Origin: Escherichia coli
GTDB lineage: Bacteria > Pseudomonadota > Gammaproteobacteria > Enterobacterales > Enterobacteriaceae
NCBI RefSeq assembly: GCF_030013595.1
Contig: NZ_CP122769.1
DNA length: 64,000 bases
Strand: one strand, 5' to 3'
How positions within the stretch are numbered: position 1 is the stretch's first letter; every line of letters starts with the position of its first letter. Below are positions 39,001 through 45,000 of the stretch, piece after piece. Made by a program: the position numbers.

Positions 39001-42000
39001 TGAGCAGCAGCTAGGACACTGTCAGCCGCTGGCAGATTTAACCCCCTTAATCGCCACACTGGGGTTGCCTCCTGAAGTTGGGTTTCAGTTCTGGGCTAGG
39101 TTGCTAACTCTGCTCCCATAATTCGTAGTGGGCCTACTCAAGAGATTAACACCTCATATCTTTAGACTGGACTGACGACAACGATTCACAGTTAGGAAAC
39201 GTAAATCAGCACACCGGTGAGATAGATTTTAGGGTCTAAGCAAGAAATAGGGTAGGCGTGAAGATTCATTAATGGAGCTCATAACGTCAAAGCGTAGAGA
39301 AGTCGACAAGAATCGTGGTTTAAAAAGAATGAGCATTAGGTATGGACTAGAGAGTCTGAGCTCTCATCTGCAAGTTAAGCTCACAAAAAATCATAAAAAA
39401 GTAAACAAACATTAGCTTAGGATTGAAACAAAGGATAGAATTGTACGTATAACAATGAAATGGACGCATTATGCGTAAAGTTTACATATATGCGTAAAAG
39501 TCGGTTTTCAGTGCAAAAAGGTCATAACCATGAATTTACTTGAAAAGATCGCCCTCGTTGGTCAGCGCATGAAAAGCGAGCAGATTTCTCTTAAGGAATC
39601 TCTGATGGCTTCATCAAGAGTATCTGTTTCTGATGATAGTGTTGATGGTGTTGATAGACTGATCTACAACCACTGTTTAAATAAAAAAAATCTCTCTGAT
39701 TTTTTTGGGAAGTCACGAGTAACGTTCAATAAAATACTTTCGGACTTAGAAGAAAAAGAAGTTGTTGGTGCACCTATTTATCAAAACAAAAATCATCTTT
39801 ACACCCGCTGGGATGTTCAAAAAATAATGGATGCCCTGGGTTATCCCAAGTACCGCGATCATTACTTTAGCAGAGCTATTGTTACTCAGAATCATAAAGG
39901 CGGTACAGGGAAAAGCACTACATCTGTAGCTTTAGCAGTAGCAGCTGCTTTAGATCTACAACTGAATGCACGTGTATTAATGATCGAATGGGACCCACAA
40001 GGTTCGATTGGAAGCAGCATGATTCAAAGTGTCTCAGAAGATGATGTCTTCCTTACAGCAATTGATGCAATCCTTGGAATTTATGAAGAAAATTCTGAGT
40101 ATAAAAAATATTTAGATTCAGGATTCTCTGAAGAAGAAATCATCACTAATATGCCTTTTTCAACGCATCTGCCAAACTTGGACGTGATAACGGCATTTCC
40201 GACAGATGCTCGTTTTAAAGATAAATACTGGCAATGTTCTAGAGAAGAACGAACGTCTTTGTTACTACGTTTCAAGGAAGTTATCTTACCGGTACTGAAG
40301 CAGAACTATGATTTGATTATTATAGACACTCCACCTGAAGATTCACCTTTGATCTGGGCTGCTGACGAAGCGGCCGATGGGATTCTTGTCGCAGTGTCAC
40401 CACGTGAATATGATTACGCCTCTACTACAGACTTCATGCTTACAATAAGTGAAAGGTTTAAACAATCACCAAGTAAGGGCGATAATTTAAAATGGTTCAA
40501 AGTTCTTGCTGTCAATGTTGATGACAAAAGTCCATATGAAAGAATAGTTTTGGATAAATTAATCAGAACTGTTCAGGACCTTTTGATGTCCGCTAACATA
40601 AAAAATTCTGAAGCATTTAAGGCAGCTGCTTCCAAAGGGCGTACAGTGCTTGATATCAAAAAATCAGAGGAACTTTGTTCCGCAAAGCAACTTGATGTCG
40701 CAGAAGAATCTGTATTACAGGTATATCAACAATTTATAAATGAAATAAAAAGTTTTTCAGCTAAGCAAGGAGTTAACGCATGAGCGATGAGCAACATATC
40801 GGGAATGATAAATCTCGATATTTAAACGCACCAAAGCGGACAGAAGTCGGTCACCGTTCAGGTCTTGCGGGTTTGAAAACAGCACCTCGCATAAAAAAGT
40901 TATTCACTCTTCATAAGGGCCGAAGACTTGAAGCGGAACATGTGATTGTTCCAGCCCAGAGAGTGGAGAAGGAGACCTTAGTCCATCCAGCAAACCCACG
41001 AAATCAAGAAGCCCTTACAGATTATTCTGTTAGAGATATTCTTAAGCAGATTGAAGAAAGAGGGGTCGATACCGAAGGGATCGCTGTAAAAAGAGATGGG
41101 GTTTATTTATTAATAGAAGGAAGTCGCAGACGTTTCTGCTGTATAAAGGCAGAAAAGGATCTCCCCCTGTGGGTACTACCGGATGAACTAACCGAAGATG
41201 ATATAAATTCAATTATATCCGCAGCACAAACATCTCGAAAATTTTCATATAGAGAAGTTGGGTTTCAATTTATCAAGAAAATGGAAGAAAAGGGATTTTC
41301 TACTAATGAAGAACTCGCAGCATATCTTGGGATTAGTCATGTATCGGTAGCCAAAAGAATCCAGGCGGCCCGTATTGACGAAACATTGATCTCTTTATTC
41401 CCGGATTATGAAGGAATACCGAACTCCTATTATAGTCGCTTGTCTCGTTTACAGAAATATGTGCAAAAAAATCTATTTCCTTTAGATGAAGTAATAGATA
41501 ATGTTAAAGAGGAAACAAAAGATTTAGACATTGGAGATCTCCAAGTTGCCCAAAAAGTTGTAATGGAGAAAATCACACAATCTGTGGAAAGTGTTTGTGA
41601 AAAATCTTATTCCACAAAATGGGAAACAAGTGATCTTATTACTTTTGATAACAAAGATAAGTATGCAAGAATCAGTAAAAACAATACTGGAAGAAAAATT
41701 CGCATTGAATTCAATAGGATAAGTGCGGGTTTTATTAAGGAGCTAGAGGAGTTCATAAAAGAAAAATTAAAAGTATCAGAATAAATATTGAACTGCATCT
41801 TTATGATGCAGTTCATATGATTTATATTTTTAATTTCTTGTTATATTAATATGGGGTGTGCGCAGGTTCAGACATATAAGGTCTTAGTTCTATATGAACA
41901 GAAGCGCCATTCCCATCATTTACTACGTTTAAAGGTGCTTTGCCCGGCAATGACATAGTTGCAACGTCAGGTCCAGAAACAGCAAAATTATTTTCTGCTG

Positions 42001-45000
42001 AAGGCATTACTGTAAAAATCTTTATAGCAACATTTTCATGTCTAAATAAAGAAATCCCAAAAGTAGAACCAGCTTCGGTATTGCTCACGTCCACAACCAC
42101 AGGGGTTTTTCCTAGATATTCATTAGTTAGTATGTTTTTTACTAATGCCCCTTCCGGGACAGTATAGATACGGTATGGATATGCTAAAACTGAGTGACAA
42201 AAACATAATAAAATAACAATTAATGTTTTTTTCATAGATTATCCTCATTCAAAAATAAAAGATATAACTCTTGAAAATCGTGGTTATTAATTAGGTCCGC
42301 TTTTCCGGGAAAATCGTAACTAACAGAAAATAAAAGAGAAAGAGAATCTTTTCCTTTTGCTTTGGGAGAGATTCTGCTAAAAGCACGGTTAATAAACATA
42401 AGTTGATCTTCATTGTTGAAGCAAAGTCCAAGCATTCCAACCGTAGGAACTACGAATGTGCTTACGCTGCCTGGGGGCAAAAGTTGCTTACTACGGGCAT
42501 TGTAAGCACAACGACTACCACCTAGCGTTAGGCCTGAAAGCTCAATAAAACTTCTGGTTCCATTCTTGGCGACAAGCCAAACATCAGTTCCTGAACTTTC
42601 GACACGTAAAGTAACTTTTCCGTCAGTAAAGGCCTCACTTTTATTGTATAGAATAGGGTCAAAACCAACTGTCGGGAGTTCTTCGATTTTACTTTCTACT
42701 GACTGACAACCAGTCAGTAATGCAAACAATAAAAGTGTGATAACTTTAATCATCCCGCTTCCTTAGATTGTTTTTGGCGCTGGTTATAAAAGATAATGAT
42801 TCACCGGGGTAGAGAATTGTTTCTTTCGTCCAATAACCATAACCACCGAGGATATCTTTTCTTTTCTCAATATAAACCGGTTCAGAAAATTCTAAATGTT
42901 GATATTTCGGAAGAGATAAGATTTTATATTTTACTTGTCCAACTAAGAGGTAATTCTTCTCTTTAGGATTGATGGTTACTGAATTACCAACACTTTGAGG
43001 TATGTTAAGTTTTTTTATATTTAGATCAGAATCGTCAGGAACGGACACTTGATCATTAGATGTCTTTCCGGGAAGAGTAAACCCTTTACCCTGATCCGGT
43101 CCAAAGATGGCAATTACATCTTTGTTGTTTCTTGTGATCGAAACGATAGCCTGAAGGGGCGTATTAGCAAGGTCATTTATAAACGATATAGTTATACTTG
43201 ATTTAGGCTCGACCCAAACAATGCTTTTTCCGGATGTGCCTTCGCTTAATGCAATTTTTTCATTTAGTAAGATTTTATTTTTGGCAATGATATTATACTC
43301 AAGTTTCGGTATCACCATAAAAAGTGATTCTTTATTTGAAACATTCATGATTTCTAAGAAATTGGTTTTGGTCATGCTGGTCTTTAGAGCAGGCCTATAT
43401 TTACCATTTATAAACCACCTTCCGTTTATAAGCTCCGCTTTAGCAGATATAAGTGAATCACTTTTCTGAGCGGCAGAAGAAAAAGCATCTTTTCTTTGCT
43501 CTTTCTCTTGATGTGGTGCAGCTGCTGCGTGAAGATGCAAAAGTAATGTTGAAATTGAGATAATCTTCCATTTTATCTTCATCTTGTTACCTCAATGTTG
43601 TTTTCAATCGAATCGAGTTCTAAAGGATAGGTTTTAAGTGAATAAAACTTGTTTGTTGTTTGTATTAGCTGATGACACAATAAAACTGGATTGTTCTTCA
43701 TGATTATTTCTACTAATGTAAGTGCTGGTGAGTCAGTTGGCGGTATACCCGGAGCAACTATTACCTGGTCTTCTAATTTTGACATATAGAGTGATCCAGT
43801 ATTTATATGTAAACAATTACCGATCAGTACTGGAAGATTGTTTTGAGTACGACCATGGGCTTTTCGAATGCTGTTTACAGGATTCCTACCTAGGACCATA
43901 AGGTTGACGTCATTTATCATCATTGGTATTACGGCATGGTCCATACCGAATAGAAACTGGCTCTGAAAAATATTCACATTGGCATAGTTGAATGCTTGAA
44001 GCGCATTATAAGTATCAGTGAATGATGTGCGGATAGGGGCGTAATCAGAAGGGCAAACCCCAATTTTTATATCGCCTTTGAGTAAAATCTGCATCATCGT
44101 ACCAAGCTGGGTATTAAGAAGTTTTTTTACCTCTTCCTCTAAATAGTAACGATTTACAGCTTTATGCCACTTTCCGCCCATTACACACCATCTCTCATTG
44201 AGGTATGTGCTGGGGTAAAATGTTCTCCGGTCTTTGTTTAATGGTAACAATTTTTTTAACATTTCTTCTCCGGCTCCGGCAGCTGAGAAATGCCTCACAA
44301 AACGTCCATCGAAAAAGCCACTGTTTATCGCCTTCATCAACTCTATGGGTTCCGGCCCATAGTCAAACAAATTTCCAGTAGAGAAAATTACTATCTCTTC
44401 TTCTGGCTTTGTAACTGATTGAATCAAGTTGCACAGCGCAGAGTAATGTCCATGAGGATCTGCCAGAAAGAAAATCCTTCCCGAGAAGTTTGTAAGGTCT
44501 ATAGTTTGGACGTGCTCAGCTGCCATAAATTCCTCTACGTATGTTTACATCGATGATACGGTATTTCGAGCTATGATTTTTTTACATAAAGGCGTCATTT
44601 TGGATTCTAAGCCTAAGGACCTTTGTTACTTACTGGTAAAGGCTCCAGTCCTGGCTCTCAAACAGTTCATACTTAGGATGCAAAGTAACTTTCTGATTAT
44701 AATTGGCTCCTTTATAAACATGTTTACTTCATGAATACAGGATATTTAACGGTAATGTATTTAAAATGGAAGGATGCTGAAATAACATAGAGTTACGTAT
44801 TTTTTTAATAGTGTTGATGTTGATAATAGGTCACCATTAATGTATAAAGTTAATATCTAATATGGTCCTATTAATAAAAGAGAGTTTTTATGGCTGAACT
44901 ATTAAAATCTGAAAGTCCTGTTTCACAATCATTGCAGGATATCACTGAAGCTTTAAAAATCGTTGTCGATGATGGAAGTAAAGCTGCAAAACTGGTTTGT

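What the first reader, a model, noticed from the sequence alone, without database searches (positions are those of the whole stretch)
41846..44526. Four-gene overlapping operon between the two partition systems: degenerate PPP-type phosphoesterase homologue plus three exported proteins
All four genes overlap start-to-stop on the minus strand. The first encodes a calcineurin/lambda-phosphatase-like protein in which the metal-binding motifs are altered (ADPHGH, GNLFDYG), suggesting a pseudo-enzyme or changed specificity. The other three have signal peptides, one with a lipobox. This module is of unknown function and separates parAB from parMR.
Basis: inference. Interest (0 to 1): 0.45.

Follow-up and report, generated by a model that had tools for sequence, protein, structure and literature searches.

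The report
IncHI plasmid Z operon: entry exclusion
The four overlapping genes are the already described "Z operon" (trhO-eexB-lipoprotein gene-trhZ) of IncHI resistance plasmids, which supports conjugative transfer and blocks entry of related plasmids; its first protein really is a phosphatase look-alike with a dead active site.

Summary
Four minus-strand genes at 41846-44526 overlap by 4, 8 and 4 nt. The first has a lambda-phosphatase fold and the other three have export signals, one of them a lipobox.

The module is not of unknown function. The window is IncHI2 (R478-type) plasmid backbone, and the four genes are orthologues of R27 R0015-R0018 (72, 44, 62 and 78% identity). These are trhO, eexB, a lipoprotein gene and trhZ, the "Z operon" of transfer region Tra2. 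In R27 this operon is described as the entry-exclusion system. It is activated by TrhR/TrhY and repressed by HtdA, and disrupting trhO or trhZ lowers transfer.

The same four-gene module sits beside trhC in distant H-type elements that lack one or both par systems. It therefore belongs to the transfer apparatus, not to partition.

- All 17 distinct TrhO-clade proteins (18 alignment rows) lack most catalytic and metal-binding residues, while 43 of the 45 nearest homologues keep all ten and the other two differ at one.
- TrhO is nevertheless under strong purifying selection.
- The EexB model shows two multicopper-oxidase-like cupredoxin domains with no possible copper site.

The operon is already known. 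The fold assignments are modest additions.

The parts
43579..44526 (-). trhO: cytoplasmic pseudo-phosphatase with a lambda-PP/NinI fold, 315 aa
   Evidence: ORF. It is 72% identical to R27 R0015, and UniRef names it 'IncH1 plasmid conjugative transfer protein TrhO'. Family matches: Pfam Metallophos 24.4 bits and PHROG 246 NinI-like phosphatase, E=1.4e-7. The AF2 model has pLDDT 92, and the top Foldseek hit is 1g5b lambda phosphatase, E=1e-13. Equivalents of the catalytic residues are D23, H25, N52, D55, Y56, A85, G86, P159, M195 and R214. There is no signal peptide or transmembrane segment.
42746..43582 (-). eexB orthologue: exported exclusion protein, 278 aa, two copper-less cupredoxin-like domains
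42232..42753 (-). Lipoprotein gene (R27 R0017 orthologue), 173 aa
   Evidence: It is 62% identical to R0017. The lipobox LLTG|C has an invariant C16. Residue +2 is Gln, so there is no Asp inner-membrane retention signal. Two further Cys (C82, C111) are invariant in five orthologues.
41846..42235 (-). trhZ: small exported protein, 129 aa, with a possible PEGA-like N-terminal domain
   Evidence: It is 78% identical to R27 R0018/TrhZ, and UniRef names it TrhZ. It has a signal peptide ending VLA|YP. The PEGA hit is below threshold (16.2 against 20.8 bits) but recurs in 4 of 5 orthologues.
41789..41815 (.). 11-bp-stem hairpin between the convergent parB and trhZ genes: likely bidirectional terminator
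   Evidence: The terminator-like site is reported on both strands.
44527..44889 (-). Divergent intergenic region shared with parM, expected to hold the Z-operon promoter; the trhO Shine-Dalgarno sequence AGAGGA lies at 44532-44537
   Evidence: Sequence. No sigma-70 consensus match falls inside this region, which fits an activator-dependent promoter. The region is 75% identical to the R27 counterpart, with the best conservation in the parM-proximal 130 nt. The promoter position is inferred, not mapped.

Best explanation
This is the IncHI2 copy of the IncHI 'Z operon' (trhO-eexB-lipoprotein gene-trhZ), a fixed accessory module of the H-type conjugation region Tra2.

It is transcribed as one translationally coupled unit from the region it shares divergently with parM, and it ends at a hairpin shared with parB.

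From the R27 literature, expression needs the activators TrhR/TrhY and is held down by HtdA, whose gene lies 2.5 kb away in this window. EexB is an outer-membrane-associated exclusion factor that must be present in both donor and recipient. trhO and trhZ are needed for full transfer frequency.

My reading of the parts is as follows:
- TrhO is a cytoplasmic, catalytically dead descendant of lambda-NinI/PrpA-type Ser/Thr phosphatases, kept as a binding or scaffold protein.
- EexB is an exported protein of two cupredoxin-like beta-sandwich domains with no copper site, used as a recognition module. Its linker and second domain vary fastest and probably set exclusion specificity.
- The lipoprotein and TrhZ probably tether or assist EexB at the outer membrane.

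Shown here: orthology, synteny, folds, loss of catalytic and metal residues, and selection pattern. Taken from the literature: the exclusion and transfer phenotypes and the regulation. Inferred: the scaffold role of TrhO, an EexB-lipoprotein-TrhZ envelope complex, and which region sets specificity.
For: Identity of the window: it is 100% identical to many IncHI2A conjugative plasmids.

Orthology and synteny with R27:
- R27 has the same four genes between parM and parB, with identities of 72, 44, 62 and 78%.
- The supplement of PMC7366339 labels R0015 as trhO ('phosphodiesterase'), R0016 as eexB, R0017 as a lipoprotein and R0018 as trhZ, all assigned to operon Z. It lists fold changes of 8.25, 12.13, 17.14 and 15.99 in the htdA-mutant comparison.
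- The main text calls Z 'the entry-exclusion system', activated by TrhR/TrhY and counteracted by HtdA.
- PMC11493245 places EexB in the outer membrane and says it is required in both donor and recipient.
- PMC11628540 says trhO and trhZ raise transfer frequency.
- UniRef names the window proteins TrhO and TrhZ.

The module belongs to Tra2, not to partition:
- An IncHI1B Klebsiella plasmid and two distant metagenomic elements keep the four-gene order next to traC/trhC without parAB. In the IncHI1B plasmid parMR is also missing.
- Among IncHI2 plasmids the operon co-occurs with trhC: 1126 against 1123 records.

TrhO is a pseudo-enzyme:
- The catalytic-site table shows D49N, loss of N75 and loss of H186 in all 18 TrhO-clade rows (17 distinct proteins).
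- H76, H139, R53 and R162 are lost in most of them.
- Of the 45 next-nearest homologues, 43 keep all ten residues and two differ at one position.
- The fold is confirmed.
- dN/dS is 0.04 within IncHI2.

EexB: the fold is shown, and no Cu ligands are present. It is the fastest-evolving gene of the operon (dN/dS 0.44). Seven of its 13 intra-IncHI2 changes fall in residues 173-243.
Against: - The primary papers (Gunton 2008; Lawley 2003) are not in the held library, so the phenotypes are cited second-hand.
- I could not establish from held sources which ORF is eexA.
- The phenotypes were measured in IncHI1 R27, not in IncHI2, and EexB is only 44% identical between the two.
- The R27 trhO insertion phenotype could be polar on the downstream genes, given the overlapping starts.
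- The main text of PMC7366339 speaks of 'three genes' in Z, while its supplement marks four.
- EexB is predicted to be a soluble exported protein, so how it associates with the outer membrane is unexplained.
- The dN/dS values within IncHI2 rest on few substitutions (1 to 13 amino-acid changes per gene).
- Loss of canonical residues does not formally exclude a non-canonical activity for TrhO.
Confidence: 0.88

Rival explanations
1. TrhO is still an active phosphoesterase that uses a remodelled, non-canonical metal site, so its specificity has changed rather than its activity being lost. In this view it acts enzymatically on a conjugation component.
For: D23 and D55 are invariant and H25 is present in the IncHI1 and IncHI2 proteins. 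The replacement residues N52, G86 and R214 are themselves highly conserved, and Y56 is largely so (Y in most, W/N/R in a few). That could mark a new functional site. Annotations call the protein a 'phosphodiesterase' or 'metallophosphoesterase'.
Against: Four of the six metal ligands of lambda phosphatase are replaced by residues that cannot coordinate metal in the same way: D49 to N, N75 to A, H139 to P and H186 to R. The general-acid His76 is Gly, and both phosphate-binding Arg are lost. H25 is Y, C, Q or R in other clade members, so even the remaining ligand is not conserved. The nearest relatives with intact motifs form a sharply separate group.
Confidence: 0.12
2. TrhO is a decaying relic with no function of its own. 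The reported trhO phenotype would then be a polar effect on eexB, the lipoprotein gene and trhZ.
For: The four genes overlap at start and stop, so insertions in trhO should reduce downstream expression. The active site is destroyed.
Against: dN/dS is 0.04 within IncHI2, the second lowest of the eight genes compared, after ParA at 0.02. A full-length orthologue is retained at the head of the operon in elements as distant as 23-28% identity. There are 58 invariant columns across the 13 closer members. The AF2 model is compact and confident, with pLDDT 92.
Confidence: 0.07
3. The module is an accessory of the partition systems, or a cargo or defence island unrelated to conjugation, as suggested by its place between parAB and parMR and by the reader's 'phage sensitivity' idea.
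For: It lies physically between two par modules in IncHI1 and IncHI2. It shares a divergent intergenic region with parM.
Against: The operon is present in the same order next to trhC in elements lacking parAB and in one lacking both par modules at that site. No PADLOC defence family matches any of the four proteins. The R27 literature assigns it to the tra regulon and to exclusion.
Confidence: 0.03

Closest known systems
Z operon of IncHI1 plasmid R27 (R0015 trhO, R0016 eexB, R0017 lipoprotein, R0018 trhZ)
   Same: Same gene number, order, sizes, overlaps and strand logic, and the same flanking genes (parM on one side, parB on the other). Protein identities are 72, 44, 62 and 78%.
   Different: This is the IncHI2 allele set. 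EexB is only 44% identical, and its N-terminus, linker and second domain diverge most, so exclusion specificity may differ. No experiments on the IncHI2 copy were found in the held literature.
Bacteriophage lambda Ser/Thr phosphatase (NinI, PDB 1g5b) and the enterobacterial PrpA/PrpB phosphatases
   Same: Same fold (Foldseek E=1e-13, TM 0.72-0.79 on the target). Sequence-level homology is shown by PHROG 246, Pfam PF00149 and NCBIfam PrpA/PrpB. D20, D52 and the motif-III G and E are kept.
   Different: Changes relative to lambda phosphatase are D49 to N52, R53 to Y56, N75 to A85, H76 to G86, H139 to P159, R162 to M195 and H186 to R214. TrhO is about 95 aa longer, with a helical insertion (about 169-199) and a C-terminal three-stranded beta extension (268-302). 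NCBIfam scores are far below the equivalog cut-offs (23.6 against 332 bits).
Vps29 (retromer), a metallophosphoesterase-fold protein that acts as a scaffold
   Same: Vps29 has the metallophosphoesterase fold, and I know it as a protein-binding scaffold rather than an enzyme. It appears among the structural hits (E about 1e-4). It is offered only as a precedent for what TrhO may work like.
   Different: There is no specific relationship. Vps29 is eukaryotic, about 190 aa, and matches far less well than lambda phosphatase. Its scaffold role is stated from my own knowledge and was not tested here.
SufI/FtsP of E. coli, a copper-less multicopper-oxidase-fold periplasmic protein
   Different: SufI has three cupredoxin domains (about 420 residues in the solved chain) and, from my own knowledge, is Tat-exported. 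EexB has two domains, a disordered N-terminal region and linker, and a Sec-type signal. Sequence identity is about 10-13%, and common descent is not shown.
Other conjugative exclusion factors: F TraT and TraS, RP4 TrbK, SXT Eex, pKPC_UVA01 TrbK
   Same: All are encoded inside a transfer region and are dispensable for the core machinery. They block redundant transfer. pKPC_UVA01 TrbK is likewise needed in both donor and recipient.
   Different: None of the four proteins matches any Pfam or NCBIfam family of these factors. EexB is much larger than the small inner-membrane Eex or TrbK proteins and is not a lipoprotein like TraT. It is embedded in a four-gene operon with a cytoplasmic pseudo-phosphatase.

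Membership tests
IncHI Z operon (R27 trhO-eexB-R0017-trhZ) | Four co-directional genes in the order phosphoesterase-like, ~279-aa exported protein, ~173-aa lipoprotein, ~130-aa exported protein | tested here: met
   sizes are 315/278/173/129 aa here against 323(315)/279/173/130 aa in R27.
IncHI Z operon (R27 trhO-eexB-R0017-trhZ) | Sequence orthology of each product to the R27 protein | tested here: met
   72, 44, 62 and 78% identity, with E-values from 5e-69 to 0. UniRef names TrhO and TrhZ.
IncHI Z operon (R27 trhO-eexB-R0017-trhZ) | Location in Tra2, convergent with the trhC side and divergent from the parM/htdA side | tested here: met
   The same holds in an IncHI1B plasmid and in distant relatives.
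IncHI Z operon (R27 trhO-eexB-R0017-trhZ) | Confers entry exclusion; trhO and trhZ disruption lowers transfer | not testable with these tools
   Known only from the R27 literature, cited second-hand.
IncHI Z operon (R27 trhO-eexB-R0017-trhZ) | Activated by TrhR/TrhY and repressed by HtdA | not testable with these tools
   Literature. An htdA gene is present in the window at about 46982-47434. No sigma-70 consensus promoter is found upstream of trhO, which is compatible with activator dependence but proves nothing.
PPP / lambda-type metallophosphoesterase (Pfam PF00149) | Alpha/beta sandwich metallophosphoesterase fold and a Pfam score above the gathering threshold | tested here: met
   Pfam 24.4 against 21.5 bits. 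Foldseek top hit is 1g5b, E=1e-13. PHROG NinI-like, E=1.4e-7.
PPP / lambda-type metallophosphoesterase (Pfam PF00149) | Motif I GDxHG (metal ligands D20 and H22 of lambda phosphatase) | tested here: inconclusive
   D23 and H25 are present in this protein. In other clade members the His is Y, C, Q or R and the Asp is N in two.
PPP / lambda-type metallophosphoesterase (Pfam PF00149) | Motif II GDxxDRG (bridging ligand D49; phosphate-binding R53) | tested here: not met
   The motif is GNLFDYG, with N52 and Y56. N is found in all 18 TrhO-clade rows (17 distinct proteins).
PPP / lambda-type metallophosphoesterase (Pfam PF00149) | Motif III GNH[ED] (ligand N75; general acid H76) | tested here: not met
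   The motif is GAGE, with A85 and G86.
PPP / lambda-type metallophosphoesterase (Pfam PF00149) | His ligands equivalent to H139 and H186 | tested here: not met
   The equivalents are P159 and R214.
Multicopper oxidase / cupredoxin (for EexB) | Tandem cupredoxin-like Greek-key beta-sandwich domains | tested here: met
Multicopper oxidase / cupredoxin (for EexB) | Copper ligands (HxH and HCH motifs; type-1 His/Cys/His/Met) | tested here: not met
   The whole protein has no Cys, and H229 is the only His beyond residue 24. None of the invariant columns is His, Cys or Met. The Pfam Cu-oxidase hit is below threshold (13.7 against 21 bits).
Bacterial lipoprotein (for ORF3) | Signal peptide ending in the lipobox [LVI][ASTVI][GAS]C | tested here: met
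   The lipobox is LLTG|C16, and the Cys is invariant in five orthologues. Lipidation itself is not testable here.
PEGA domain (for TrhZ) | Pfam PF08308 match above the gathering score | tested here: inconclusive
   Score is 16.2 against 20.8 bits, E=0.0097, over residues 21-51. Four of five diverse orthologues give the same weak hit.
Anti-phage defence systems (PADLOC) | Match to any defence-protein model | tested here: not met
   None of the four proteins matches any family at E up to 0.1.

The most novel reading that the evidence does not exclude
The Z operon may encode a small envelope-spanning recognition device built from two 'dead enzyme' folds. EexB is a copper-less two-cupredoxin protein, held at the outer membrane by the lipoprotein and TrhZ. 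It would recognise EexB on the partner cell homotypically, which would explain why it is needed in both donor and recipient. The cytoplasmic pseudo-phosphatase TrhO would couple that state to the T4SS or relaxosome as a phospho-independent adaptor. Neither the pseudo-phosphatase nature of TrhO nor the cupredoxin fold of EexB appears in the literature I could search.
Probability: 0.2. Interest if true: 0.55.

Novelty: already known. Interest (0 to 1): 0.27.

Why it matters
IncHI2 plasmids are major carriers of mcr and carbapenemase genes, and this operon sits in essentially every one of them: 1126 records against 1123 for trhC. Knowing that it is the exclusion and transfer-modulation operon removes a false "unknown module". 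It also shows that the operon's place between two partition systems is incidental.

The added value here is structural:
- TrhO is a conserved, selected, catalytically dead lambda-type phosphatase.
- EexB is a copper-less two-cupredoxin protein whose linker and second domain evolve fastest.

Together these give concrete handles, namely point mutants and domain swaps, for a long-standing puzzle. It is still unclear how an exclusion factor can be required in both donor and recipient, and why trhO and trhZ affect transfer.

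Tried and rejected
- **Primary papers.** Gunton 2008 (PMID 18192011), Lawley 2003 (PMC145343) and Humbert 2019 (PMC6482922) are not held. I therefore could not determine which ORF is eexA. The adjacent lipoprotein gene is only a guess.
- **H139 equivalent.** I first took H121 in GGKWH as the equivalent of lambda H139. The alignment with 45 intact phosphatases places H139 opposite P159, so I rejected that idea.
- **Promoter scan.** No sigma-70 consensus site lies in 44527-44889. Repeats there are short and at chance level. No promoter or operator could be assigned.
- **NCBIfam.** There is no specific family for any of the four proteins. The PrpA/PrpB equivalog scores are far below their cut-offs.
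- **Lipoprotein.** Pfam gives nothing for the lipoprotein beyond the lipid-attachment motif.
- **AlphaFold database.** The afdb50 fold library was unavailable.
- **Defence reading.** No PADLOC hits.
- **Partition-accessory reading.** Rejected on synteny in relatives that lack the par modules.
- **Truncated EexB clusters.** P0019 and P0020 may simply be contig-end fragments, so I drew no conclusion from them.

Full report
**Observation.** The ORF list shows four minus-strand ORFs at exactly the stated coordinates:
- 43579-44526 (315 aa)
- 42746-43582 (278 aa)
- 42232-42753 (173 aa)
- 41846-42235 (129 aa)

Successive genes overlap by 4, 8 and 4 nt (ATGA, ATGATTAA, ATGA). Each start is preceded by a GAGG or AAGGA Shine-Dalgarno sequence. 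This is the classic arrangement for translational coupling. The block is flanked by parA and parB (39530-41784, + strand) and by parM and parR (44890-46577, + strand). An 11-bp-stem hairpin at 41789-41815 lies between the convergent parB and the last gene and scores as a terminator on both strands.

**What the window is.** The 3-kb region is 100% identical to many IncHI2A conjugative plasmids (relaxase MOBH, mating-pair type MPF_F) of Escherichia, Salmonella, Enterobacter and Klebsiella. It matches 1126 plasmid records in all. RefSeq annotates the four genes as 'metallophosphoesterase' plus three 'hypothetical proteins'.

**Orthology to the R27 Z operon.** The IncHI1 reference plasmid R27 has four genes of the same sizes, order and overlaps between parM and parB (NC_002305 20184-22897). 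Identities to the window proteins are 72%, 44%, 62% and 78%. For comparison, ParA is 89%, ParB 72%, ParM 80% and ParR 42% identical.

The supplementary table of PMC7366339 labels these R27 genes, all assigned to operon 'Z':
- R0015 = trhO, 'phosphodiesterase'
- R0016 = eexB, 'exclusion protein'
- R0017 = 'lipoprotein'
- R0018 = trhZ

UniRef names the exact window proteins 'IncH1 plasmid conjugative transfer protein TrhO' and '...TrhZ'. So the module is the IncHI2 copy of a named operon.

**What is known about it (literature, second-hand for the primary papers).**
- PMC7366339 states that Tra2 contains the AC, Z and AN operons.
- It states that TrhR and TrhY together activate F, H, AC and Z, and that HtdA counteracts them.
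- Its supplement lists fold changes of 8.25, 12.13, 17.14 and 15.99 for R0015-R0018 in the htdA-mutant comparison. I read this as drR27 against R27 at 25 °C.
- PMC11493245, citing Gunton et al. [quoted passage not shown] It adds that EexA and EexB are needed in both donor and recipient. PMC8923210 and PMC12282955 say the same about the donor-and-recipient requirement.
- PMC11628540, citing Lawley et al. 2003, says trhO and trhZ increase transfer frequency and htdA decreases it. This agrees with my memory of the Lawley 2003 abstract.
- The primary papers are not held, and I could not establish which ORF is eexA.

**The operon belongs to transfer, not partition.**
- A Klebsiella IncHI1B plasmid carries the same four-gene module (267, 238, 166 and 137 aa). 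It lies between htdA-like genes and traC/trhC, with no par genes at the site.
- Two distant metagenomic elements, whose TrhO is only 26-28% identical, keep the order TrhO-like, then ~310-340 aa, ~180 aa and ~130-140 aa proteins. There the module lies between parM and traC, without parAB.
- Among IncHI2 plasmids the operon (1126 records) and trhC (1123 records) co-occur essentially one to one.
- No PADLOC defence model matches any of the four proteins.

**TrhO is a pseudo-phosphatase.**

*Homology and fold.* Homology to lambda-type Ser/Thr phosphatases is real:
- Pfam Metallophos scores 24.4 bits.
- PHROG 246, 'NinI-like serine-threonine phosphatase', gives E=1.4e-7 over residues 3-247.
- phmmer's best match among solved structures is 1g5b.
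- A confident AlphaFold model (pLDDT 92, pTM 0.92) has lambda phosphatase as its best Foldseek match (E=1e-13, TM 0.72-0.79 on the target).

*Catalytic residues.* A profile search of 1.84 billion representative proteins found only 64 hits. I aligned the full-length hits with lambda phosphatase and read off ten catalytic positions.

The split is sharp. Of the 45 conventional homologues, 43 have D20, H22, D49, D52, R53, N75, H76, H139, R162 and H186, and the other two differ at a single position (P0060 at R162, P0063 at N75 and R162). All 18 TrhO-clade rows (17 distinct proteins; the IncHI1B protein enters both as P0043 and from L003) have Asn at the D49 position, lack N75 and lack H186. Most also lack H76, H139, R53 and R162.

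In the window protein the equivalents are D23, H25, N52, D55, Y56, A85, G86, P159, M195 and R214. Even H25 is Y, C, Q or R elsewhere in the clade. So four of six metal ligands, the general acid and both phosphate-binding arginines are gone.

*Selection.* The protein is nevertheless under strong purifying selection. dN/dS is 0.04 between two IncHI2 sub-lineages, the second lowest of the eight genes compared, after ParA at 0.02 (few substitutions, so approximate). There are 58 invariant columns among the 13 closer members.

*Other features.* TrhO has no signal peptide or transmembrane segment. Relative to lambda phosphatase it carries a helical insertion (about 169-199) and a C-terminal beta extension (268-302).

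By analogy with scaffold proteins of this fold such as Vps29, which also appears among the structural hits, I infer a binding or adaptor role. That role is not shown.

**EexB.**
- The protein has a Sec-type N-terminus (MKIKWKIISISTLLLHLHAAAA|P). A low-confidence stretch runs to residue ~41.
- Two well-predicted beta-sandwich domains follow (44-162 and ~200-277), joined by a disordered linker at 166-179.
- The hits include SufI/FtsP, which I know as a copper-less member of that fold. A weak Pfam Cu-oxidase hit agrees.
- EexB has no cysteine and a single histidine beyond residue 24. None of the invariant columns is His, Cys or Met. A copper centre is therefore impossible.
- EexB is the fastest-evolving gene of the operon. 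It is 44% identical between IncHI1 and IncHI2.
- Within IncHI2 it is 95.3% identical in the Enterobacter-type lineage, where TrhO is 99.7% identical, and its dN/dS is 0.44.
- Seven of the 13 intra-IncHI2 substitutions are non-conservative and fall in residues 173-243. The alignment of 21 homologues shows the same variable N-terminus, linker and start of domain 2.
- This pattern fits a recognition or specificity protein. That these regions actually set exclusion specificity is inference.

**Lipoprotein and TrhZ.**
- ORF3 has the lipobox LLTG|C, and the Cys is invariant. Residue +2 is Gln, so there is no Asp retention signal and an outer-membrane location is expected by the +2 rule, which I state from general knowledge. 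Two further cysteines are invariant.
- TrhZ has a signal peptide. All four of its intra-IncHI2 differences lie within that peptide, so the mature protein is identical between the two lineages.
- TrhZ gives a sub-threshold PEGA-domain hit that recurs in 4 of 5 diverse orthologues.
- Neither protein matches any other family.

**Regulatory anatomy.**
- The 363-bp region between trhO and parM contains no sigma-70 consensus site and only chance-level repeats.
- It is 75% identical to the R27 region, with the best conservation next to parM.
- This is compatible with an activator-dependent promoter but maps nothing.
- The gene for the repressor HtdA lies at about 46982-47434 in the window.

**Most likely mechanism.** The operon is expressed with the tra regulon. 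The three exported products act at the envelope: EexB as a beta-sandwich recognition module, probably held at the outer membrane by the lipoprotein and/or TrhZ. They disfavour mating with cells that carry the same system. Cytoplasmic TrhO contributes to transfer efficiency as a non-catalytic adaptor.

| Status | Elements |
|---|---|
| Shown here | Orthology, synteny, folds, residue losses, selection |
| From the literature | Phenotypes, localisation, regulation |
| Inferred | The envelope complex, the adaptor role of TrhO, the specificity region of EexB |

Rivals are a remodelled but active TrhO (about 0.12), TrhO as a relic whose phenotype is polar (about 0.07), and a partition or defence accessory (about 0.03).

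**Verdict.** The feature is real, but it is the already described IncHI Z operon, present in more than a thousand sequenced plasmids. The novelty rating is 'already known'. Two points appear to be new details, in that I did not find them in the searchable literature: the clade-wide catalytic death of TrhO under purifying selection, and the copper-less two-cupredoxin architecture of EexB. They make mechanistic experiments on IncHI exclusion easier to design, which justifies a modest interest score.

Noticed in passing
window 35193-39529 (array at 36060-39150): A 4.3-kb stretch between trhC and parA has no ORF of 80 aa or more. It contains a 249-bp x 12.6 tandem-repeat array (73% matches) and has GC of about 0.49-0.51, against 0.33-0.41 in the flanks. 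R27 has a comparable CDS-free gap at NC_002305 25339-28464. It may be a centromere or incompatibility repeat region of the ParAB system.
   Followed up: partly
EexB homologues P0037/P0038 (IncHI1) and P0019/P0020 (IncHI2, Enterobacter hormaechei): Some IncHI1 plasmids carry a frameshifted eexB (226-227 aa) in which the frame is lost after GPDQGK, removing the second domain. The 177-aa and 170-aa IncHI2 forms may be truncations or contig-end fragments.
   Followed up: partly
window 41700-44700 compared with 32511-35192, across PLSDB: Within IncHI2, trhC is at least 99% identical in 1122 of 1123 plasmids. The Z-operon DNA is at least 99% identical in only 680 of 1126, with 445 at 95-99%. The extra divergence is largest in eexB, with ParR and the TrhZ signal peptide also elevated.
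   Followed up: yes
L004 10462-10962 (distant relative, Logan SRR5240292): A YdjM-family gene is inserted on the opposite strand between the lipoprotein gene and the trhZ-like gene, so the four-gene block tolerates an insertion there.
   Followed up: no
L002 20184-20207 (R27 trhO start): RefSeq starts R27 TrhO eight codons upstream (MQFQKEAF-MASEH). The Shine-Dalgarno sequence AGAGG and the start of the IncHI2 orthologue both point to the second ATG, giving 315 aa. Many database entries already use the 315-aa form.
   Followed up: partly
window 45939-46577 (parR) compared with R27: ParR is only 42% identical between IncHI2 and IncHI1, while ParM is 80% and ParA 89%. Together with EexB at 44%, these are the two most divergent proteins in the neighbourhood, and both are candidates for determining specificity.
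   Followed up: no
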